Part shown: one piece after another, positions 1 through 8,522 of the stretch | Numbering within the stretch: the first letter of the stretch is position 1 | Layout: each line of letters starts with the position of its first letter | Source: a virus | Taxonomy: Duplodnaviria > Heunggongvirae > Uroviricota > Caudoviricetes | DNA: 8,522 bases | Virus record (IMG/VR): IMGVR_UViG_2541047751_000016 | Span: 1 to 8,522 of that record | Direction: 5' to 3' (one strand) | Program-made: the position numbers and the translations under genes | The notes under the pieces: generated by a model | The model's input: only the letters and a program-made list of their open reading frames with translations | What the model was told of the DNA's origin: nothing | Database searches by the model: none

Positions 1-693
1 GAATGGCACGCTCTGGAAAAACGAGCACTGGCAGAAGGCTGGACACCATCGCGCTATCTTCTGACGCTATGCAATGAAGAACTCCTGTGGCGCGAGAGTG
101 AAAAACTGCGTCGTTATAAAAAGGAGGCCCGGTTGCCAGTTGCCAAAACGCTAAGCGAATACGACTTCAGTCAGGTGCCGGAACTGAATGGAGCTCAGTT
201 CCGGCAACTCTGTGAAACGACAGACTGGGTTGATGCAGGAGAAAACGTTCTGCTGTTCGGAGCCAGCGGGTTGGGGAAAAGCCATCTGGCGGCAGCGATC
301 GTGGATGGCGTAGTAGGCCAGGGCTACCGGGCCCGGTTCTACAGCGCAGGAGAGTTGTTGCAGGAACTACGTAAAGCCAGAGCGCAGTTGAAACTGAATG
401 AGCTGCTACTGAAACTGGATCGCTACCGGGTGATAGTGGTGGATGATCTTGGCTATGTCAAACGCGACAGCGCCGAAACGGGAGTACTGTTCGAGTTAAT
501 AGCGCATCGCTATGAACGTGGGAGCCTGGTGATAACCAGTAACCATCCGTTCAGCATGTGGGGCAGCATCTTCGTGGATGAGACTATGGCGGTGGCGGCG
601 GCAGACCGGCTGATCCATCACGGATATATGTTCGAACTGAAAGGTGAAAGCTACAGGAAAAAGACAGCGAAGGCAGTAACAAGCGCGACTTGA
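1..693 (+). CDS. istB: IstB-like AAA+ ATP-binding transposition helper of IS21 family (5'-truncated by window edge)
   Basis: Frame 1 is open from base 1 (EWHALEKRALAEGW...). Translation shows LPVAKTLSEYDF, Walker A GASGLGKSHLAAA, Walker B-like VIVVDDLGY, ITSNHPF and C-terminal DRLIHHGYMFELKGESYRKK, matching the IstB/DnaC-like family from memory. Confidence 0.9.
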   Translation, partial: EWHALEKRALAEGWTPSRYLLTLCNEELLWRESEKLRRYKKEARLPVAKTLSEYDFSQVPELNGAQFRQLCETTDWVDAGENVLLFGASGLGKSHLAAAIVDGVVGQGYRARFYSAGELLQELRKARAQLKLNELLLKLDRYRVIVVDDLGYVKRDSAETGVLFELIAHRYERGSLVITSNHPFSMWGSIFVDETMAVAAADRLIHHGYMFELKGESYRKKTAKAVTSAT

Positions 694-1954: not shown

Positions 1955-2041
1955 ATGGAAGAAGAATTTGAAGAGTTCGAAGGGCATCCGCAGGATGTGA
2001 TGGAGCAATACCAGGACTATCCGTATGACTACGACTATTGA
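1955..2041 (+). CDS. orf28-like acidic mini-protein (28 aa)
   Basis: GAGG at 1945-1948, ATG at 1955, MEEEFEEFEGHPQDVMEQYQDYPYDYDY. Overlaps the ral start by 17 bp, the same arrangement I recall for lambda orf28/ral. Too short for composition statistics. Confidence 0.4.
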   Translation: MEEEFEEFEGHPQDVMEQYQDYPYDYDY

Positions 2042-2225
2042 TAAGAATCAATGGTGTGGACAATTCAAGCGATGCAATGGATGCAAGCTGCAATCGGAAT
2101 GCATGGTTAAGCCTGAAGAAATGTTTCCTGTAATGGAGGATGGGAAATATGTCGATAAATGGGCAATACGAACTACGGCAATGATTGCCAGAGAACTTGG
2201 TAAACTGAACAACAAGGCTGCCTGA
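2025..2225 (+). CDS. ral: Ral restriction-alleviation protein (anti-restriction against type I R-M)
   Basis: 66-aa product MTTTIDKNQWCGQFKRCNGCKLQSECMVKPEEMFPVMEDGKYVDKWAIRTTAMIARELGKLNNKAA is near-identical to lambda Ral as I remember it. Confidence 0.85.
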   Translation: MTTTIDKNQWCGQFKRCNGCKLQSECMVKPEEMFPVMEDGKYVDKWAIRTTAMIARELGKLNNKAA

Positions 2226-2244
2226 TGGTGGCCTTTATTTTCTT
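2214..2244 (+). terminator. Intrinsic-terminator-like hairpin after ral
   Basis: AAGGCTGCC (2214-2222) / GGTGGCCTT (2227-2235) stem with two wobble pairs, loop TGAT, then TATTTTCTTATTT. Shares GGCCTTTATTTT with the hairpin at 2874-2900. Confidence 0.5.
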
Positions 2245-2261
2245 ATTTGAGAGGAATTAAT

Positions 2262-2885
2262 ATGTCATCAATCCGCTTAACTACGAGAATGAAAGAGGAA
2301 ATCGCTCGTAACGCTTTAATTAAGTCTGGGGTTTTCACTGAACTTGAAGAAGTAACAAAGTTAAAGAACCAGCTTGCACTTGACGCCAGAGTTATTGCGT
2401 TTGGCGGTAAAAAGAAAACTGAGGAAGTGGATCAGTTATCATCCAAGTTGGTAGCTATAAGTGAAGAACTTGAAAAGATGGGATGTTCATTTTACTCATA
2501 CGATGTTCGTTCTACTTCAATTTATCTGACTGTATCTGGCAGAAGGGTTGGATGGCATTCATATGGGAAAGACGGCAACGGCGAAGATATATTGCTCCCT
2601 ACTCCGACCAAAGATAAATGCATGTTTGACGCAGAACACGAAATAACAGAAAGGTTTGATGAAATCTGCGCATTACAACAAAAACTTGAAGCAAAGAAAA
2701 AGGATATCGAATCAAATGTATGGGCTGCTTTAAACTCAGTCACAACAGTTAAGCGACTCATTGAAGTTTGGCCTGAAAGCAAAGAATTGCTACCAAAAGA
2801 AGCAGATAAAGCAAGTACAGCACTTCCTGCTTTACGGGTAGAAGATTTGAATAAGATGATTGGACTTCCTTCCGAGGCCGCATAG
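2262..2885 (+). CDS. Hypothetical protein (207 aa), no family recognised
   Basis: GAGAGGA at 2249-2255, ATG at 2262, long open frame. Product MSSIRLTTRMKEEIARNALIKSG...GWHSYGKDGNGEDILLPTPTKDKCMFDAEHE... Occupies the position of lambda ea10 between ral and cIII. Looks more AT-rich than its neighbours by eye. Confidence 0.75.
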   Translation: MSSIRLTTRMKEEIARNALIKSGVFTELEEVTKLKNQLALDARVIAFGGKKKTEEVDQLSSKLVAISEELEKMGCSFYSYDVRSTSIYLTVSGRRVGWHSYGKDGNGEDILLPTPTKDKCMFDAEHEITERFDEICALQQKLEAKKKDIESNVWAALNSVTTVKRLIEVWPESKELLPKEADKASTALPALRVEDLNKMIGLPSEAA

Positions 2886-3384: not shown

Positions 3385-3673
3385 TAAGCGTGAAATATCG
3401 CAAATAATCGCAAGTTTTACTGATGAAGATTACGAGCGAATCAACAGTGAAGTTGATCGTCTCTGCAAACGTTGCGACCCAATAAGCGAAATGCTTCGCT
3501 CATATAAACCAGATGAACACACTAAGGACGCTATCGACTGGCTGGAAGATGATGACTGTAACTATCAGGAAAAAGCCGCTGAATGGTTCTGGGATGCAAT
3601 AACCGAAAGAGTTAAGGCTGAATATGCCTTCTCAATATTCAAACGCAGACACATTTTTGGAGAAGCTGCATGA
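3362..3673 (+). CDS. Hypothetical protein (103 aa) immediately upstream of recT
   Basis: AGGAG at 3353-3357; ATG at 3362 (or 3365). Stop overlaps the recT start (ATGA at 3670-3673). Acidic product with WLEDDDCNYQEKAAEWFWDAI. Occupies the gam position by synteny, with no similarity to Gam recognised. Confidence 0.65.
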   Translation: MMILTLNDKREISQIIASFTDEDYERINSEVDRLCKRCDPISEMLRSYKPDEHTKDAIDWLEDDDCNYQEKAAEWFWDAITERVKAEYAFSIFKRRHIFGEAA

Positions 3674-4581
3674 GCAATATCGTTGAATTCGTTAAACAGC
3701 AGGAGCAGTTATTCTGCGGAGCATTGACTGAACAGACGGTGACATGGGCTAAGGAAAGCCAGTTTGCAATTCAGTATTTCCAGAAAAATGATTACCTGGC
3801 TAAAACGGCACTGGCAAATCCAACCAGCGCACAGAACGCCATCATCAATGTTGCGGCGATCGGCATCACCTTAAACCCGGCTAGCAAACTGGCTTATCTG
3901 GTTCCGCGCGACGGCATGGTGTGCCTTGATATCAGTTATATGGGATTGCTCCATATTGCAATGGAGTCTGGTGTTATCTCATGGGGTCAGGCAAAACTTG
4001 TTCATGCTAACGATACCTATGAGTCAAACGGGCTTGATAAAGCACCAACCCATAAATACAACGCCTTCGGTGATCGTGGTGATATCGTTGGCGTTTACTG
4101 CACAGTTAAGACGCCAGCAGGTGATTATCTAACGGAAGAGATGAGTCTGGCTGAAATTGAGGCTGTAAGGAAAACAAGCAAGGCGGCATTCAGCGATAAA
4201 GGACCATGGGTAAATCACTGGAATGAGATGGCGCGAAAGACGGTCGTAAAGCGTGCAAGCAAGTATTGGCCTAAGGCATCACGTCTTGATAGTGCTATTC
4301 ACGTACTAAACGAAGAAGAAGGTGTGTGGACTGAACCAGTTATGCCGCACAAATCAGAGGAAGATATCCGCGAAGATGAACGGAAACGCCAGCAGGAAAT
4401 AATGGATAAAGTACAACTTCTTTGCGATGAAATGGCTCAGGCAGAAAACATGGATGATTTGAAGCGATATTTTGCAGAAGCATATCGCCTGACATCTGGA
4501 ATGAAATTGCAGCAGAACGTACAAGCCATTTACATAGAATGCAAAGCGAAACTGGAGGTTGCCAGTGAGCAAACTGTATGA
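3670..4581 (+). CDS. recT: RecT-family single-strand annealing protein (phage recombinase)
   Basis: GGAG at 3658-3661, ATG at 3670, 303 aa. Motif GPWVNHWNEMARKTVVKRASKYWP matches E. coli RecT GPWVTHWEEMAKKTAIRRLFKYLP (from memory). Carries an extra charged C-terminal tail of about 80 aa. Confidence 0.85.
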   Translation: MSNIVEFVKQQEQLFCGALTEQTVTWAKESQFAIQYFQKNDYLAKTALANPTSAQNAIINVAAIGITLNPASKLAYLVPRDGMVCLDISYMGLLHIAMESGVISWGQAKLVHANDTYESNGLDKAPTHKYNAFGDRGDIVGVYCTVKTPAGDYLTEEMSLAEIEAVRKTSKAAFSDKGPWVNHWNEMARKTVVKRASKYWPKASRLDSAIHVLNEEEGVWTEPVMPHKSEEDIREDERKRQQEIMDKVQLLCDEMAQAENMDDLKRYFAEAYRLTSGMKLQQNVQAIYIECKAKLEVASEQTV

Positions 4582-5047
4582 AATAGCCAATGAATACGCA
4601 AAGCTGATGGATTCAGATTTAGAGCCAGAGATGATTGCTGACACAATAGAAGGCATGGAAGGAGAATTTACCGATAAAATAGAGCAACTTCTTTCCGTCA
4701 TTAAAAATGAATCTGGTTATGCCGAACGCCTCAAGGAAGAGGCAAAGTCACTGAATGAGCGAGCCGCAGTAATTCAAAATAAGATTGAGAGCATCAAATC
4801 ATATATAGCGTCATCGCTTGAAATGGTTGGCAAGAAAAATATTCGAGCAGGCATTCACCAGGTAACAATCCGAAAACCGTCAGAAATTGTAGAAATCATC
4901 GACTCAAGCGCCCTTCCTCCTGAATACGTTGAGTTCGAAACGACAATTAAAGCCGACAAACTGGCAATCAAACACCAACTAAAAGCAGGAATAAATATCC
5001 CCGGCGCTCAACTCAAAGTTGGGAAACCTTCACTTCTTATCAAATAA
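4565..5047 (+). CDS. Siphovirus Gp157-family protein
   Basis: GGAGG at 4554-4558, GTG at 4565 (TTG at 4559 also possible); overlaps the recT 3' end. Product (V/M)SKLYEIANEYAKLMDSDLEPEMIADTIEGMEGEF... resembles Gp157-family proteins that commonly sit beside RecT/Erf genes. Confidence 0.7.
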   Translation: MSKLYEIANEYAKLMDSDLEPEMIADTIEGMEGEFTDKIEQLLSVIKNESGYAERLKEEAKSLNERAAVIQNKIESIKSYIASSLEMVGKKNIRAGIHQVTIRKPSEIVEIIDSSALPPEYVEFETTIKADKLAIKHQLKAGINIPGAQLKVGKPSLLIK

Positions 5048-5058
5048 CGGTATCGACT

Positions 5059-5373
5059 ATGAAAAAGACTCCATGGGAGAAATGGGAAGTCGATTTCTTG
5101 CGCGAAGTGGCGGCGACAATGCCAGTTGAAGTTATCGCTGAAAAACTGGAAAGGACTGAAAAAGCAGTAATGGCGAAAGCAACAAGGATTGGAGCTGACA
5201 TTGTTAGCCGACTTCGTGGAAGACGCTGGACAAGAGCCGAAGTATCACTTTTCGGTAAGTTCTCCGCAGAAGAAATAGCAATTGCAACCTGCCGCTCAAT
5301 TTATTCAGTAAGAGCTATGCGATACAAGCTAAAAAAACTCGATGAAGAAAGAGCAGGCATACGAATAAATTAA
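5059..5373 (+). CDS. Hypothetical protein with two tandem ~40-aa repeats (possible Myb/SANT-like helix-turn-helix DNA-binding protein)
   Basis: ATG at 5059. Internal repeat PWEKWEVDFLREVAATMPVEVIAEKLERTEKAVMAKATRIG versus RRWTRAEVSLFGKFSAEEIAIATCRSIYSVRAMRYKL. Basic, HTH-like composition. Confidence 0.65.
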   Translation: MKKTPWEKWEVDFLREVAATMPVEVIAEKLERTEKAVMAKATRIGADIVSRLRGRRWTRAEVSLFGKFSAEEIAIATCRSIYSVRAMRYKLKKLDEERAGIRIN

Positions 5374-5389
5374 CATGGAGTAATTAACA

Positions 5390-5671
5390 ATGAAGCTGAA
5401 CATCGACCTCGGAAAATACGTTATTACTGGAACAAAACACGACCTGATTCTTAATGAAAGAGGAATTATCAAAGAAGGCGAGAATGCAGGGAAAGAAACA
5501 CTAAGCCGTATCGGTTATTACAGCAAGTTTGAGCATCTGGTTAAAGAGTTATGCAACCGTGAAATTCTGTTATCTCAGGCGCAGACGCTACAGGATATTC
5601 AGCAGCATATCGAAACTTTAGGTGTGTCACTTAGCATGGCTATTGACCAGTTCGTTGAGAGTAAATCATGA
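5390..5671 (+). CDS. Hypothetical protein (93 aa)
   Basis: GGAG at 5377-5380, ATG at 5390. Stop overlaps the start of the next small ORF (ATGA at 5668-5671). Confidence 0.6.
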
Positions 5672-5832
5672 GAGGACTTGCATACAATCCCGGCATCCTT
5701 CCGGCAGAAATGATTATTCGCCAACGCGTAAAGCCAATGCCATCGAGAGAGGAATTGCTTAAGAGAAATTCTTTTCCTTCAGTGAATCAAAACAAATATC
5801 TGAATGCGATGTGGCGGAGTGGGAAGAAATGA
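5668..5832 (+). CDS. Hypothetical small protein (54 aa), not in the supplied ORF track
   Basis: ATG at 5668 overlaps the upstream stop (ATGA); its own stop overlaps the ATG at 5829 of the next gene (ATGA). Coupled at both ends. Product [54 protein letters not shown]. Confidence 0.4.
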
Positions 5833-6311
5833 AACAAATGTCACTAATTGAGATGGATGGATTTCTGAAAGGTAAATGCATCCCAAGTGATTTAAAGGTT
5901 AACGAAACAAACGCTGAATACCTTGTCCGTAAGTTCGGTGAACTTGAATCAAAACTGGAAACGGCGTTGCGGGAGTGTAGTTCTGCTGGAATCACGATTG
6001 ATAACCTTGAGGCTAAATGCGCGAAGATGGCTGCTGAAAATACCTCACTTAAGCAATCTGAGAAGGAATTTAATGACTTTTGTCGTGAGGAGTTTAGCGA
6101 ATGGGAAGATGATGTTACTGAAACCCCAGCCACCGATGCTTTCCTGGCTGAAGTACGGGCGCAGGGGGTAGAGATGTACGCAGATAACCTCGACAACGGA
6201 GCAGACGACGCAGAACGAGGTGGTTTTGATGATGCCGTTAAGTTTCTACGCAGTGAAGCGTCTGGTGTACGTTTGTTCGCCGACCAGCTTCGCAAAGGAG
6301 GCAACCAGTGA
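5829..6311 (+). CDS. Coiled-coil protein, Ea22-like (paralog 1)
   Basis: ATG at 5829 (in-frame GTG at 5811 is an alternative). Coiled-coil-like N-terminal half and acidic C-terminal half. Family assignment from memory is tentative. Confidence 0.6.
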
Positions 6312-6793
6312 GCAAGATTGATTATCAGGCACTGCGTGAGGCGGCAGAACGTGCAATTACGGCAATGGAACGCCTGTTAATGTTGCCAGTTGATGATGAT
6401 CTGATAAGCGAACAGGAACTTAAAGATTACGGTGTGGATATTGATGCGCTCAACGCCTTCAAATTTCTGGCCGGACCAGAAACCGTGCTGGCGCTGCTGG
6501 ATGAACGGGAAAGAAACCAGCAATACATCAAATCCCGCGACCAGGAGAACGAGGAAATTGCGCTAACGGTAGGGAAGCTGCGCGTTGAGCTTGAAGCAGA
6601 AAAACAGCGGGCAAAAGTTCTATTTATGGAAAATGCTCGGCTTAAGTCAGGCATAGCCGGTCTGATACACCTCGGTATTCGATATGCAGATGTTGAGGTC
6701 ATGAAAATTGCTGGAGATGCCCAGCTTTCTACCCCATGCACTGACAGCATCATAAACAGCATTGCAACAGGCATTCGCATCAAAGGAGAGTGA
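6308..6793 (+). CDS. Ead/Ea22-like family protein (paralog 2)
   Basis: AGGAGG at 6296-6301, GTG at 6308 overlapping the upstream stop (GTGA). N-terminus [16 protein letters not shown]... resembles proteins annotated Ead/Ea22-like in enterobacterial prophages (from memory); coiled-coil segment LTVGKLRVELEAEKQRAKVLFMENARLK. Confidence 0.65.
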   Translation: MSKIDYQALREAAERAITAMERLLMLPVDDDLISEQELKDYGVDIDALNAFKFLAGPETVLALLDERERNQQYIKSRDQENEEIALTVGKLRVELEAEKQRAKVLFMENARLKSGIAGLIHLGIRYADVEVMKIAGDAQLSTPCTDSIINSIATGIRIKGE

Positions 6794-6794
6794 T

Positions 6795-6992
6795 ATGGAT
6801 AAAAACACCACTGCTTACTGGAATCTGTCACTTGATACCGAATGCCCAAAATGCGGTCACAATTTCGATCTGCTTTGTGATGCTGATTTCTGGGAGTTTT
6901 CTGGAGCTAAACAGGCATGTGAAGAAATAAAAGGTTACGAAACATGCTGTCCAGAATGTAACCATGAATTTAAAACAGATTTCGTGTATTGA
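6795..6992 (+). CDS. Small zinc-ribbon protein (two CxxC knuckles)
   Basis: AGGAG at 6784-6788, ATG at 6795, 65 aa. Contains CPKCGHNF and CPECNHEF, an internally duplicated knuckle typical of zinc-ribbon/rubredoxin-like folds. Confidence 0.7.
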   Translation: MDKNTTAYWNLSLDTECPKCGHNFDLLCDADFWEFSGAKQACEEIKGYETCCPECNHEFKTDFVY

Positions 6993-7002
6993 GGCATAAC
7001 AA

Positions 7003-7614
7003 ATGACCACTATTACCAGAGAACAGGCACAGAAAATTATTGAAGCAGCCGATGAGGTTATTAGTGCGCTGGCCGGAACTAATGAGGATGTTAACCCTGA
7101 TAGCAATGACATGCTACGTCTGTGGGATGACCTGAATGACCGTCACGCGCCCCCTGAAGTTGTGCGTGAGCTGGCACGAATTGCGCTGGCATCGCTGGGA
7201 GCAGAACCTGTAAGCCAAGCTTACAACTTGCCAGAATTAATCGAAGGCATGGAGGTTTCCATTGATGTAAGCACTTGTGATGCGGATTTAGGTAATCGCT
7301 ATTTCGGTACCGTCACCGAGGCGTTAGAACTTGATACTGCCAAGAATGGTTACATCCTCCTGGTTCAGGACGCAGAGCCAAACTTCGATGTAAATGGCAA
7401 CTCTCCGGTAACTCCGGATGGTTGGATAAGCTGTAGTGAGCGAATGCCCCCTCAAGATGATTGGATTTTAATTTATTCAAAGCACGGCGAGTATATGGCA
7501 GGACAGGTACAAGGGGAATACGTGGAGTTGAGCGACGGCACTTTATCGTGGTTAGGGAACGTCTTGTTCTGGATGCCGCTACCAGAACCTCCGCAGGAGG
7601 TTAACCGTGGCTAA
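7003..7614 (+). CDS. DUF551-domain phage protein
   Basis: GAGG at 6992-6995, ATG at 7003, 203 aa. C-terminal WISCSERMPPQDDWILIYSKHGEYMAGQ...LSWLGNVLFWMPLPEPP matches the DUF551 signature as I remember it. Confidence 0.8.
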   Translation: MTTITREQAQKIIEAADEVISALAGTNEDVNPDSNDMLRLWDDLNDRHAPPEVVRELARIALASLGAEPVSQAYNLPELIEGMEVSIDVSTCDADLGNRYFGTVTEALELDTAKNGYILLVQDAEPNFDVNGNSPVTPDGWISCSERMPPQDDWILIYSKHGEYMAGQVQGEYVELSDGTLSWLGNVLFWMPLPEPPQEVNRG

Positions 7615-7646
7615 CCTGCAACTTGCCGTCAAAGGTGAATAACAAT

Positions 7647-7672
7647 CCTCGCACTCGCGGGGATTTCTTTTA
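7647..7672 (+). terminator. Terminator-like hairpin (first of a tandem pair) after the DUF551 gene
   Basis: Stem CCTCGC (7647-7652) / GCGGGG (7657-7662) with one G-U wobble, loop ACTC, then ATTTCTTTTA. Confidence 0.45.
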
Positions 7673-7676
7673 TCTG

Positions 7677-7702
7677 AACTCGCTACGGCGAGTTTTGTTT
7701 TA
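7677..7702 (+). terminator. Intrinsic terminator (second of the tandem pair)
   Basis: Stem AACTCGC (7677-7683) / GCGAGTT (7688-7694), loop TACG, then TTGTTTTA. Confidence 0.65.
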
Positions 7703-7714
7703 TGGAGATGATAA

Positions 7715-7882
7715 ATGCACTTCCGAGTCACAGGTGAATGGAATGGAGAGCCATTCGACAGGGTTATCGAAGCAGAGGACATCAACGACTGCTATAACCA
7801 CTGGATGATATGGGCGCAGATAGCGCATGCAGACGTAACCAATATTCGAATTGAAGAACTGAAAGAACACCAAGACGCCTGA
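7715..7882 (+). CDS. Hypothetical small protein (55 aa), not in the supplied ORF track
   Basis: GGAG at 7704-7707, ATG at 7715. Product MHFRVTGEWNGEPFDRVIEAEDINDCYNHWMIWAQIAHADVTNIRIEELKEHQDA. Sits directly after the tandem terminators. Confidence 0.55.
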   Translation: MHFRVTGEWNGEPFDRVIEAEDINDCYNHWMIWAQIAHADVTNIRIEELKEHQDA

Positions 7883-7908
7883 TGGCGGTTTTTTATTGGA
7901 GACAAGAA

Positions 7909-8253
7909 ATGTCAGATTTGGCTATGAAGGTTTTGAAATGGCAATCAACTGGCGATGTCGGCATCAGTAGCGCAACTCTTGCCTCAATCGCATGTGGACT
8001 GAAAAAAAATATCTATGGTCATCACTTCGGCGCTCCACATGACGCAGCAGACTTCCGGCGATGCGTTGCACTTGTTGAGCAGATTCCAGAAATCAGAGAT
8101 TCATTCGACAAGGTTGCAAAGCGCGTTCCGGCATTCAAAGGCATCCTCAACGAATGGGATTCTCTCGTTGCTCTGTTGAAGTTTGAAATGAAGATACACG
8201 GAAACAAAGCACCAGAGACTTACAGAAGAATCAGCGAGCTACGCAAGGACTAA
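7909..8253 (+). CDS. Hypothetical protein (114 aa)
   Basis: GGAGA at 7898-7902, ATG at 7909. Product MSDLAMKVLKWQSTGDVGISSATLASIACGLKKNIYGHHFGAPHDAADFRRCVALVEQIPEIRDSF... No family recognised. Confidence 0.65.
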   Translation: MSDLAMKVLKWQSTGDVGISSATLASIACGLKKNIYGHHFGAPHDAADFRRCVALVEQIPEIRDSFDKVAKRVPAFKGILNEWDSLVALLKFEMKIHGNKAPETYRRISELRKD

Positions 8254-8290
8254 CGCCTCACACTCGATGAGGCCTGTACATATCTGATAG

Positions 8291-8316
8291 AGCCGCTATA
8301 TGGCGGTTTCTTTTTG
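8291..8316 (+). terminator. Terminator-like hairpin before the AlpA/Xis-like gene
   Basis: Stem AGCCGC (8291-8296) / GCGGTT (8303-8308) with one G-U wobble, loop TATATG, then TCTTTTTG. A second hairpin GCCTCA-N7-TGAGGC lies at 8255-8273. Confidence 0.4.
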
Positions 8317-8330
8317 CCTGGAGAATTAAG

Positions 8331-8522
8331 ATGACCGATACCAGCCTGATTCCTGAGAAAGAAGTGATGAACAAGCTCGGTGTTTCATCACGTCAGACAA
8401 TCTGGAACTATACCAAACGGCACGGATTTCCGAAGCCAGTCAGAACCCACCCCAAATCATACCTTCGTGAAGCTGTTGAAGGGTGGATTCTTAACGGTGG
8501 CGTTAATCAGAAATGCTCCTGA
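8331..8522 (+). CDS. AlpA-family phage transcriptional regulator / putative excisionase (Xis-like)
   Basis: GGAG at 8319-8322, ATG at 8331, 63 aa. EKEVMNKLGVSSRQTIWNYTKRHGFPKPVR...YLREAVEGWI fits the AlpA-type winged-HTH pattern. Its position at the distal end of the early operon matches xis in lambdoid phages. Confidence 0.7.
   Translation: MTDTSLIPEKEVMNKLGVSSRQTIWNYTKRHGFPKPVRTHPKSYLREAVEGWILNGGVNQKCS

What the first reader, a model, noticed from the sequence alone, without database searches (positions are those of the whole stretch)
6795..7614. Zinc-ribbon mini-protein with duplicated CPxC-x-H-x-F knuckles next to a DUF551 protein
The 65-aa protein has two near-identical knuckles (CPKCGHNF and CPECNHEF) about 40 residues apart, a minimal zinc-ribbon. 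It is followed 10 bp later by a 203-aa protein whose last ~60 residues carry the DUF551 signature, with an unassigned N-terminal part. Both are of unknown function and may act together.
Basis: partly seen in the sequence, partly recalled or inferred. Interest (0 to 1): 0.4.

Follow-up and report, generated by a model that had tools for sequence, protein, structure and literature searches.

The report
Prophage zinc-ribbon gene beside DUF551 gene
Two small accessory genes of unknown function lie near the end of the early-left operon of an E. coli lambda-like prophage: a real but uncharacterised acidic zinc-ribbon mini-protein and a patchwork DUF551 protein, neighbours by genetic linkage with no sign that they work as a pair.

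Summary
A 65-aa ORF (6795-6992) carries CPKCGHNF and CPECNHEF, 35 residues apart. Ten bases downstream, a 203-aa ORF (7003-7614) has Pfam DUF551 at residues 140-198.

The mini-protein belongs to a real phage family (PHROG 4173; about 200 clusters at 50% identity). Its four cysteines are invariant in 130 aligned members that I chose for having both CxxC pairs. The model has zinc-ribbon topology (pLDDT 89). Members are strongly acidic (median net charge -9). Non-synonymous divergence is low (dN 0.10) while synonymous sites are saturated. No Pfam, NCBIfam, PDB or BFVD assignment goes beyond "generic zinc ribbon".

The idea that the two genes act together is not supported.
- In close enterobacterial relatives, 55 of 56 loci have an ORF starting MTT(I/F)T 10 nt downstream, but only 42 of those ORFs carry DUF551.
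- The window's exact zinc-ribbon protein pairs with 10 different head/DUF551-core combinations.
- In about 9 more distant phage lineages (19 loci), no DUF551 lies within 3-4 kb.
- Segments of the DUF551 gene occur in 2502 of 5426 complete E. coli genomes; the zinc-ribbon gene occurs in 85.

Both are ordinary exo-xis ("ea") region accessory genes. Function remains unknown. My best guess for the zinc ribbon is an early acidic protein-binding inhibitor, held with low confidence.

The parts
6795..6992 (+). 65-aa acidic C4 zinc-ribbon protein gene (PHROG 4173; no Pfam or NCBIfam family above cut-off)
   Evidence: ORF and motifs. PHROG 4173 at E 8.8e-28. Family of 202 clusters. Invariant C17/C20/C52/C55. 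AF2 pLDDT 89.4 with hairpin-helix-hairpin topology. Net charge -8 counted by eye from the sequence; family median -9. dN 0.10 with saturated dS against the Klebsiella phage copy.
6785..6797 (+). Ribosome-binding site GGAG (6785-6788), stop of the upstream Ead/Ea22 gene (TGA 6791-6793) and ATG (6795-6797): close translational juxtaposition
   Evidence: Read directly from the sequence. Function as a ribosome-binding site is inferred.
6993..7002 (+). 10-nt spacer between the two genes; GAGG (6991-6994) overlaps the zinc-ribbon stop codon
   Evidence: The same 10-nt gap occurs in 55 of 56 loci with a zinc ribbon at least 90% identical. The upstream 25 nt are nearly constant whatever head type follows.
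7003..7614 (+). 203-aa mosaic DUF551 protein gene (PHROG 60)
   Evidence: The identical protein is found in E. coli (P0174). It lies between Ead/Ea22 + the zinc ribbon and xis/int in prophages next to sbcB.
7003..7212 (+). N-terminal 'head' module (aa 1-70: MTTITRE...ELARIALASLGAEPV), predicted helical; this is the part that is constantly linked to the zinc-ribbon gene
   Evidence: PHROG 3323/660/5117 hits on residues 1-74. At least 12 head variants follow the same zinc-ribbon gene. Helices 6-24, 35-44 and 51-65 appear in a low-confidence model.
7213..7401 (+). Middle cassette (aa 71-133), no family assignment, bounded by the recurrent joints AEPV and GNSPVTPDGW. The boundary coordinates are my own reading of the alignments.
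   Evidence: Nearly invariant across the 44 aligned relatives (A3), most of them in invariant columns. Absent or replaced in other downstream proteins.
7420..7596 (+). DUF551 domain (aa 140-198)
   Evidence: PF04448 at E 1e-11, 45.9 bits. Constant flanks and an interchangeable interior.
7607..7642 (+). 11-codon remnant (MANLQLAVKGE*) of the gene that follows DUF551 in relatives; its GTG overlaps the end of the DUF551 gene
   Evidence: Read. The full-length 93-94 aa versions start MANLQLAVKGEYFD... (L041 4722-5003) and MANLQLAVNGEYFD... (L039 4048-4332).
7644..7695 (+). Two terminator-like hairpins (7644-7665 and 7676-7695) after the pair
   Evidence: Consensus scan only. No sigma-70-like promoter was found anywhere in 5000-8522, which fits one long pL transcript.

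Best explanation
The two ORFs are independent, non-essential accessory genes of the exo-xis ('ea') region, near the distal end of the N-antiterminated early-left (pL) operon of an E. coli lambdoid prophage.

The 65-aa gene encodes a genuine single-zinc C4 zinc ribbon from a phage-wide family (PHROG 4173). The family is strongly acidic and sits among early or DNA-metabolism genes. The most likely mode of action (inferred, not shown) is a small early-expressed protein that binds a basic surface of a host or phage protein that handles DNA, and blocks or modulates it. It is unlikely to bind nucleic acid itself.

The 203-aa gene is one combination from a highly mosaic gene family: a helical head, interchangeable cassettes and a C-terminal DUF551 domain. 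It is related to the Ea22/EaA group of lambdoid proteins, whose function is unknown.

The two genes are neighbours because the zinc-ribbon gene, the 10-nt spacer and the first codons of the downstream gene form one linkage block. That block ends at a recombination joint. They are not neighbours because they form a two-protein system.

The confidence of 0.7 applies to the identity, context and independence claims. The acidic-inhibitor mechanism on its own I put at about 0.3.
For: Context:
- Window map: Ral, Nmad5, RecT, Gp157, DUF5405, DUF2737, Ead/Ea22, zinc ribbon, DUF551, then a xis-like gene.
- The same gene order, running from cI/N to int next to sbcB, is seen in E. coli genomes.
- No promoter-like site occurs in 5000-8522.

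Zinc ribbon:
- PHROG 4173 at E 8.8e-28; 202 clusters.
- Four invariant cysteines; AF2 pLDDT 89.4 with each CxxC at a hairpin turn.
- The best structural neighbours are small zinc ribbons (ZitP, LysW; TM 0.4-0.55, not significant).
- 94% of family members have net charge of -5 or lower.
- dN is 0.10 with saturated synonymous sites between the E. coli and Klebsiella-phage copies.
- Neighbours in other lineages include helicase/primase, DNA pol B/UvsX/DnaB/MazG, methyltransferases, a thymidylate-synthase-like gene, an exoribonuclease and xis.

Independence of the two genes:
- 0 of 19 distant loci have DUF551 or the head module within 3-4 kb.
- The zinc-ribbon gene is in 85 of 5426 E. coli genomes; DUF551-gene segments are in 2502 of 5426.
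- 43 phage records carry the zinc ribbon and 505 carry DUF551.
- Klebsiella phage Geezett has both, 34 kb apart.
- The window's exact zinc-ribbon protein pairs with 10 head/core combinations.
- In 14 of 56 close loci, the ORF 10 nt downstream lacks DUF551.

Mosaic joints: the 27-nt 5' flank of the DUF551 core is 93-100% identical at DNA level across 16 unrelated cores.
Against: - No experiment or informative homology ties the zinc ribbon to any target. The 'acidic inhibitor' mechanism rests only on charge, size, timing and analogy.
- Zinc binding itself is inferred.
- The very constant 10-nt junction in 55 of 56 close loci could still reflect translational coupling that matters for expression. 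A functional link to the conserved head module, rather than to DUF551, is not excluded.
- Many close loci come from related prophages, so the counts are not independent events.
- My DUF551 and head HMMs were built from enterobacterial sequences and could miss very divergent domains. Pfam scans of the immediate neighbours and the precomputed Pfam hits also found none.
Confidence: 0.7

Rival explanations
1. The zinc ribbon and the downstream protein form a functional pair. The mini-protein would be an adaptor, chaperone or regulator of the MTTIT-head/DUF551 protein, made by coupled translation.
For: 55 of 56 close loci keep exactly 10 nt between the zinc-ribbon stop and an MTT(I/F)T start. 42 of those downstream ORFs carry DUF551 and 8 more loci have DUF551 further downstream. 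The pair also travels together on phage-plasmid-sized E. coli plasmids of about 93-110 kb.
Against: No co-variation: the window's exact zinc-ribbon protein pairs with 10 head/core combinations. At least 24 head-type genes in the same loci have other upstream neighbours. No DUF551 or head module lies near the zinc ribbon in about 9 distant lineages. At most about 2% of DUF551-gene places in E. coli can have the zinc ribbon beside them (94 against 4922 places).
Confidence: 0.12
2. The mini-protein is an anti-restriction or anti-defence factor, a functional analogue of Lar, Ral or Ocr-like acidic proteins, that protects incoming or induced phage DNA.
For: It is strongly acidic across the family and lies in early operons. 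Related loci carry Lar-family zinc ribbons in the same region (L038 3936-4238, Pfam Lar 36.1 bits). The window itself carries Ral at 2025-2225. It is present in both temperate and virulent phages.
Against: There is no sequence or profile relation to Lar: hhalign probability is 7.8% and only the knuckle aligns, with no Pfam or NCBIfam hit. No structural match to a known anti-defence protein was found. I did not scan the protein against PADLOC, which in any case holds defence proteins rather than anti-defence proteins. This is a special case of the main mechanism, not a contradiction of it.
Confidence: 0.2
3. The mini-protein is a nucleic-acid-binding zinc ribbon, for example a transcription or replication accessory factor like the TFIIB, primase or TraR-type zinc modules.
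For: Weak sub-threshold Pfam matches to many zinc-ribbon families, including TFIIB-type. It lies near replication genes in several phages.
Against: A net charge of about -9 over 62 residues in 94% of members argues against direct binding to DNA or RNA. No match reaches any family cut-off. There is no TraR/DksA hit. All the matches cover only the CPxC knuckles.
Confidence: 0.08

Closest known systems
PHROG 4173 (phage protein family, unknown function)
   Same: The 65-aa protein matches it over its full length (E 8.8e-28). Relatives occur in P22-like and lambdoid phages, Klebsiella Jedunavirus, and Erwinia, Yersinia and Enterobacter phages.
   Different: Nothing differs: it is a member. The family has no described function and no Pfam or NCBIfam model.
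Pfam DUF551 (PF04448): E. coli CPS-53 YfdS, P22/HK620 EaA/HkaE-type proteins, Ea22 variant V2
   Same: The C-terminal 60 residues score above the gathering cut-off. They lie in the same exo-xis/ea region, and the portable-domain, mosaic behaviour is as described for Ea22 variants (PMC10834534).
   Different: This protein lacks the Ead/Ea22 coiled-coil. That element is encoded here by a separate gene at 6308-6793. The reports for YfdS (oxidative-stress sensitivity, suppression of replication over-initiation together with YfdQR; PMC4776307) have not been tested for this protein.
Lambda exo-xis zinc proteins: Orf73 (TraR-like C4) and Ea8.5 (homeodomain/zinc-finger hybrid)
   Same: They are small, early, zinc-binding accessory proteins encoded between the recombination genes and xis (PMC8614690, PMC9239242).
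   Different: No sequence match: no TraR/DksA Pfam hit at E<=0.1. Fold searches did not return these folds. The spacing and topology differ, with two CPxC knuckles 32-40 residues apart.
Lar restriction-alleviation family (PF14354)
   Same: It is a small CxxC...CxxC phage protein found in the same genomic neighbourhood in related prophages.
   Different: hhalign of the family profile against a verified Lar protein gives 7.8% probability, with only 9 knuckle residues aligned. There is no Pfam or NCBIfam hit.
YacG (small acidic zinc-finger inhibitor of DNA gyrase): a functional analogy only, from my own knowledge
   Same: About 65 aa, C4 zinc site, acidic, and it acts by binding a DNA enzyme. One JGI record labels a family member as YacG-like (P0171).
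   Different: No Pfam YacG/DUF329 match, and the cysteine spacing differs. The analogy is a lead, not a test.

Membership tests
Zinc ribbon (structural class) | Two CxxC knuckles, each at the turn of a beta-hairpin, together providing four zinc ligands | tested here: met
   C17, C20, C52 and C55 are invariant in 130 members chosen for having both CxxC pairs. In the AF2 model, strands 14-16/23-25 and 45-51/58-63 flank the two knuckles, with pLDDT 91-96 in the residue blocks that hold them.
Zinc ribbon (structural class) | Actual binding of one Zn2+ per chain | not testable with these tools
   This needs metal analysis of purified protein.
PHROG 4173 | Significant full-length match to the family profile | tested here: met
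   E 8.8e-28, 98 bits, residues 1-64.
Pfam DUF551 (PF04448) | Score above the gathering cut-off (22 bits) | tested here: met
   45.9 bits, E 1e-11, residues 140-198 covering profile positions 1-68 of 68.
Lar restriction-alleviation family (PF14354 / TIGR03655) | Match to the Lar profile or to a verified Lar protein | tested here: not met
   No hit at E<=0.1 in Pfam or NCBIfam. hhalign of A2 against the Lar protein of L038 (itself 36.1 bits to PF14354) gives 7.8% probability.
YnfU family zinc-binding protein (NF038384 / PF23499) | Score above the curated cut-off (36 bits for NCBIfam, 27 bits for Pfam) | tested here: not met
   19.3 bits and 14.2 bits. Only 24 of 130 members reach E<=0.01, fewer than for the most frequently matched generic zinc-ribbon models.
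Rad50 zinc hook (PF04423) | Score above 24.3 bits; a single CxxC per chain that shares a zinc between two chains | tested here: not met
   20.5 bits on residues 39-62 only. This family has two CxxC pairs per chain.
TraR/DksA C4 zinc finger (lambda Orf73 type) | Match to the zf-dskA_traR profile; acidic DxxDxA tip followed by a C4 site | tested here: not met
   It is absent from the Pfam hits at E<=0.1 and from the 25 families most often matched by members.
Two-gene system (zinc ribbon + DUF551) | Co-occurrence of the two families across divergent lineages | tested here: not met
   0 of 19 distant loci have DUF551 or the head module nearby (annotation; precomputed Pfam). 85 against 2502 E. coli genomes.
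Two-gene system (zinc ribbon + DUF551) | Co-variation of partner variants | tested here: not met
   The window's exact zinc-ribbon protein is paired with 10 different head/DUF551-core combinations. There are 13 head starts (first 14 aa) and 15 core starts plus two unparsed ORFs among the close loci.
Two-gene system (zinc ribbon + DUF551) | Physical interaction of the two proteins | not testable with these tools
   No multimer prediction is available. The monomer model of the 203-aa protein was poor (pLDDT 42.3).

The most novel reading that the evidence does not exclude
The 65-aa protein represents a phage-wide, uncharacterised family of acidic zinc-ribbon inhibitors, present in temperate lambdoid phages, virulent Klebsiella phages and T4-like phages. 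The family would neutralise a conserved host protein that handles DNA, or a defence protein. The hypervariable-core DUF551 proteins next to it in enterobacteria would be a separate arms-race module.
Probability: 0.25. Interest if true: 0.5.

Novelty: new member of a known kind. Interest (0 to 1): 0.2.

Why it matters
As it stands, little. The finding adds two annotated-as-unknown genes to the well-known, mosaic exo-xis region of lambdoid prophages and removes a tempting 'gene pair' idea.

Three results are useful:
- PHROG 4173 can now be described as a conserved, strongly acidic C4 zinc ribbon. It is under strong purifying selection and is shared by temperate and virulent phages, which makes it a reasonable candidate for screens of phage early inhibitors or anti-defence factors.
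- The constant partner of the zinc-ribbon gene in E. coli and Salmonella is the start of a mosaic gene, not DUF551. This is a caution for guilt-by-association in mosaic phage regions.
- DUF551 domains behave as cassettes with DNA-identical flanks and unrelated interiors. This may help whoever tries to assign that domain a function.

Tried and rejected
- Fold assignment of the zinc ribbon. Foldseek against PDB and BFVD gave nothing significant (best PDB E 0.76; best BFVD E 5.6e-3, to an unnamed 73-aa viral protein). A profile search of PDB sequences matched only CxxC knuckles, for example designed C2H2 fingers.
- Domain fusions as a clue. The longer family members (P0104, P0106, P0060, P0045, P0142 and others) have N-terminal extensions with no Pfam domain. 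P0168 is a deletion fusion with the upstream phrog_614-type gene.
- Scan of species-representative genomes. It found no relative, only one chance match.
- Alignment-based scan of IMG/VR.
- Structure of the 203-aa protein. pLDDT was 42.3 from a shallow, mosaic alignment. I therefore left the last fold search unused, since a poor model gives meaningless matches.
- PDB sequence searches with the 203-aa protein and with a 14-allele DUF551 profile. Both returned zero hits.
- Lar, YnfU, Rad50-hook, TraR and YacG membership. All were rejected (see Membership tests).
- Internal duplication as the origin of the two knuckles. I did not pursue this. The similarity is confined to CPxC plus a hydrophobic position, as in zinc ribbons generally, and the H is not conserved.

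Full report
**1. What is in the sequence**

The window is the early-left arm of a lambdoid prophage. On the + strand it encodes:
- a truncated IstB_IS21 ORF (133-693);
- a weak N-like peptide (1647-1946);
- Ral (2025-2225);
- Nmad5 (2247-2885);
- RecT (3670-4581);
- Gp157/Gam-like (4559-5047);
- DUF5405 (5390-5671);
- DUF2737 (5668-5832);
- a phrog_614 protein (5811-6311);
- Ead/Ea22 (6308-6793);
- the 65-aa ORF (6795-6992);
- the 203-aa ORF (7003-7614);
- phrog_676 (7715-7882);
- phrog_1229 (7882-8253);
- an AlpA/excisionase-like ORF that runs to the last base of the window (8331-8522).

The identical 203-aa protein occurs in E. coli genomes. There the same gene string runs from cI/N to xis/int next to sbcB and the his operon. 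No sigma-70-like promoter is predicted in 5000-8522, and two terminator-like hairpins follow the pair. This fits one long pL transcript. The two genes therefore lie in the 'exo-xis' or 'ea' region, a known reservoir of small non-essential genes (PMC8614690, PMC10834534).

**2. The observation**

It is correct.
- The 65-aa ORF has CPKCGHNF at residues 17-24 and CPECNHEF at 52-59. The spacing is 35 residues, not about 40.
- Its ATG lies one base after the Ead/Ea22 stop and is preceded by GGAG.
- The next ATG is 10 nt after its stop.
- The 203-aa product scores 45.9 bits on Pfam DUF551 at residues 140-198. Nothing in Pfam covers residues 1-139.

**3. The mini-protein is a real, conserved zinc ribbon**

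- It matches PHROG 4173 over its full length (E 8.8e-28).
- It reaches no Pfam or NCBIfam cut-off. The best scores are the Rad50 hook at 20.5 bits against 24.3, and YnfU at 19.3 against 36.
- An exhaustive HMMER search of 1.84 billion representatives found 202 clusters at E<=1e-3, mostly stand-alone proteins of 60-70 aa.
- In 130 aligned members the four cysteines are invariant, and A7, W9, L13, P18, D25 and F59 are at least 90% conserved. I chose those members for having both CxxC pairs. The 16 of 160 proteins held at that point that I left out were mostly fragments or recombinants.
- AlphaFold2 with this alignment gives pLDDT 89.4 and the topology hairpin (14-25), short helix (30-35), hairpin (45-63), with each CxxC at a hairpin turn.
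- Foldseek finds no significant neighbour in PDB or BFVD. The nearest are generic small zinc ribbons such as ZitP and LysW.
- The family is uniformly acidic: median net charge is -9 over about 62 residues, and 94% of members are at -5 or lower.
- Between the E. coli copy and the Klebsiella Jedunavirus copies (80-85% amino-acid identity), synonymous sites are saturated while dN is 0.10. This indicates strong purifying selection.

**4. The downstream protein is one combination from a very mosaic family**

- Among 42 distinct DUF551 ORFs from related loci, lengths run from 105 to 423 aa.
- These proteins share a start, MTT(I/F)T(K/R)E, and a joint...ALASLEAEP(V/I). After that they carry different numbers of cassettes joined at recurring linkers. 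They end in DUF551.
- Within DUF551 the flanks are constant (NSPVTPDGWISCSERMP ... HWMPLPEPP) while the interior is replaced wholesale. I counted 15 alleles below 60% similarity in this small sample.
- The 27-nt 5' flank is 93-100% identical at DNA level across 16 unrelated cores. That is what recombination at short conserved joints would leave behind.
- The AF2 model of the whole protein was poor (pLDDT 42.3), and PDB sequence searches found nothing. The fold remains unassigned.
- The literature reports no mechanism. DUF551 is called a portable domain. It is present in Ea22 variant V2 and in YfdS of prophage CPS-53, which is linked to peroxide sensitivity and, with YfdQR, to suppression of replication over-initiation (PMC10834534, PMC4776307).

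**5. Do the two genes belong together?**

In loci whose zinc ribbon is at least 90% identical to this one (56 loci: IMG/VR, E2348/69 and the window):
- 55 have exactly 10 nt between the zinc-ribbon stop and an MTT(I/F)T start.
- In 42 of the 56, that ORF carries DUF551. In 8, DUF551 lies further downstream. In 6 it is absent from the stretch I fetched.
- The constant neighbour is therefore the head module and its start, not DUF551.

There is no co-variation. The window's exact zinc-ribbon protein is followed by 10 different head/core combinations. The same loci contain at least 24 further head-type genes with other upstream neighbours.

Outside this clade the association disappears.
- Jedunavirus phages of Klebsiella place the gene before a DEAD-box helicase and a primase.
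- An Erwinia phage places it before xis.
- Yersinia YeP1 places it two genes upstream of an Rv2179c-like exoribonuclease; the gene between them has no Pfam match.
- T4-like contigs place it between a late-transcription co-activator gene and MazG, near DNA polymerase B, UvsX and DnaB.
- Other contigs place it next to methyltransferases or a thymidylate-synthase-like gene.
- My DUF551 and head HMMs found nothing in these 19 loci.

The converse also holds.
- Segments of the DUF551 gene occur in 2502 of 5426 complete E. coli genomes, at 4922 places. The zinc-ribbon gene occurs in 85 genomes, at 94 places.
- In the phage collection, 505 records carry DUF551 and 43 carry the zinc ribbon.
- Klebsiella phage Geezett has both, 34 kb apart.

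**6. Mechanism**

Shown:
- a conserved C4 zinc-ribbon fold (by prediction);
- acidity;
- strong selection;
- a position in early or DNA-metabolism gene clusters of both temperate and virulent phages.

Inferred:
- The protein acts by binding another protein, most plausibly a basic surface of a protein that handles DNA or of a defence protein. It is unlikely to bind nucleic acid itself.
- I put about 0.3 on that class of mechanism. Within it, about 0.2 goes to an anti-restriction or anti-defence role.
- Direct relation to Lar is excluded at the sequence level (7.8% hhalign probability against a verified Lar protein).

For the DUF551 protein I can only say that it is a modular exo-xis protein whose interchangeable C-terminal core suggests a diversifying interaction surface.

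**7. Verdict**

Both genes are members of catalogued but uncharacterised families, and they sit where such genes are expected. The 'pair' reading is not supported. Interest is low. The zinc-ribbon family itself is a fair candidate for experimental screens.

Noticed in passing
window 7384-7600; A3/A4; L007-L069 DUF551 ORFs: DUF551 domains have constant flanks (NSPVTPDGWISCSERMP ... HWMPLPEPP) and completely different interiors of 39-66 aa: at least 15 alleles in proteins that are otherwise 95-100% identical. The 27-nt 5' flank is 93-100% identical at DNA level across 16 unrelated cores, which suggests cassette exchange at short conserved joints.
   Followed up: partly
window 7003-7212 and the ORFs 10 nt after the zinc-ribbon gene in L007-L069: The downstream genes share an MTT(I/F)T(K/R)E start and an ...ALASLEAEP(V/I) joint but have at least 12 different head sequences. 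Some are short (91-192 aa) and lack DUF551. Several loci carry 2-3 such genes in tandem.
   Followed up: partly
window 7607-7642: An 11-codon ORF (MANLQLAVKGE*) overlaps the end of the DUF551 gene. It is the start of a 93-94 aa gene present in relatives (L041 4722-5003, L039 4048-4332), so the window carries a deletion scar here. RefSeq names an 'ASCH domain-containing protein' next to DUF551 in similar loci, but the L041 protein had no Pfam hit.
   Followed up: partly
P0015, P0017, P0018, P0020, P0168 (relatives of window 6795-6992): Recombinant forms exist in public data. Some have only the second knuckle fused to unrelated N-termini, and one is a fusion of the phrog_614-type N-terminus to the whole zinc ribbon. 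Recombination joints therefore also fall inside or just upstream of this gene.
   Followed up: no
P0198; L045 3209-3970: Some DUF551-family proteins carry cysteine-rich cassettes of their own: a CxxC...CPKC module inside P0198, and a DnaJ-like CxxCxGxG stretch replacing the DUF551 interior in L045.
   Followed up: no
window 133-693: This ORF matches IstB_IS21 (E 1.5e-52) from profile position 58 onward, that is, an N-terminally truncated IS21 helper ATPase. It lies at the left end of the window, upstream of the N-like, Ral and Nmad5 genes. The stretch 700-1650 has no convincing ORF.
   Followed up: no
window 2025-2885: The antirestriction gene ral is followed by an Nmad5 (nucleotide-modification-associated) gene. 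The same Ral-Nmad5 order is seen in related E. coli prophages L077 and L079; L078 has Nmad5 without Ral, and L080 has Ral followed by DUF2528 instead.
   Followed up: no
E. coli plasmids of 93-110 kb (e.g. NZ_CP026725.1 70832-71029): 18 of the 94 E. coli places for the zinc-ribbon gene are on plasmids of about 93-110 kb, where DUF551 genes are also annotated. By their size these are probably phage-plasmids, but I did not check.
   Followed up: no
L001 5423-5745 (E2348/69): Just upstream of the zinc-ribbon/DUF551 pair, the same prophage has another small gene (63 aa, not a zinc ribbon) followed by a truncated MTTITKERLL head gene. This repeats the 'small gene + head gene' arrangement.
   Followed up: partly
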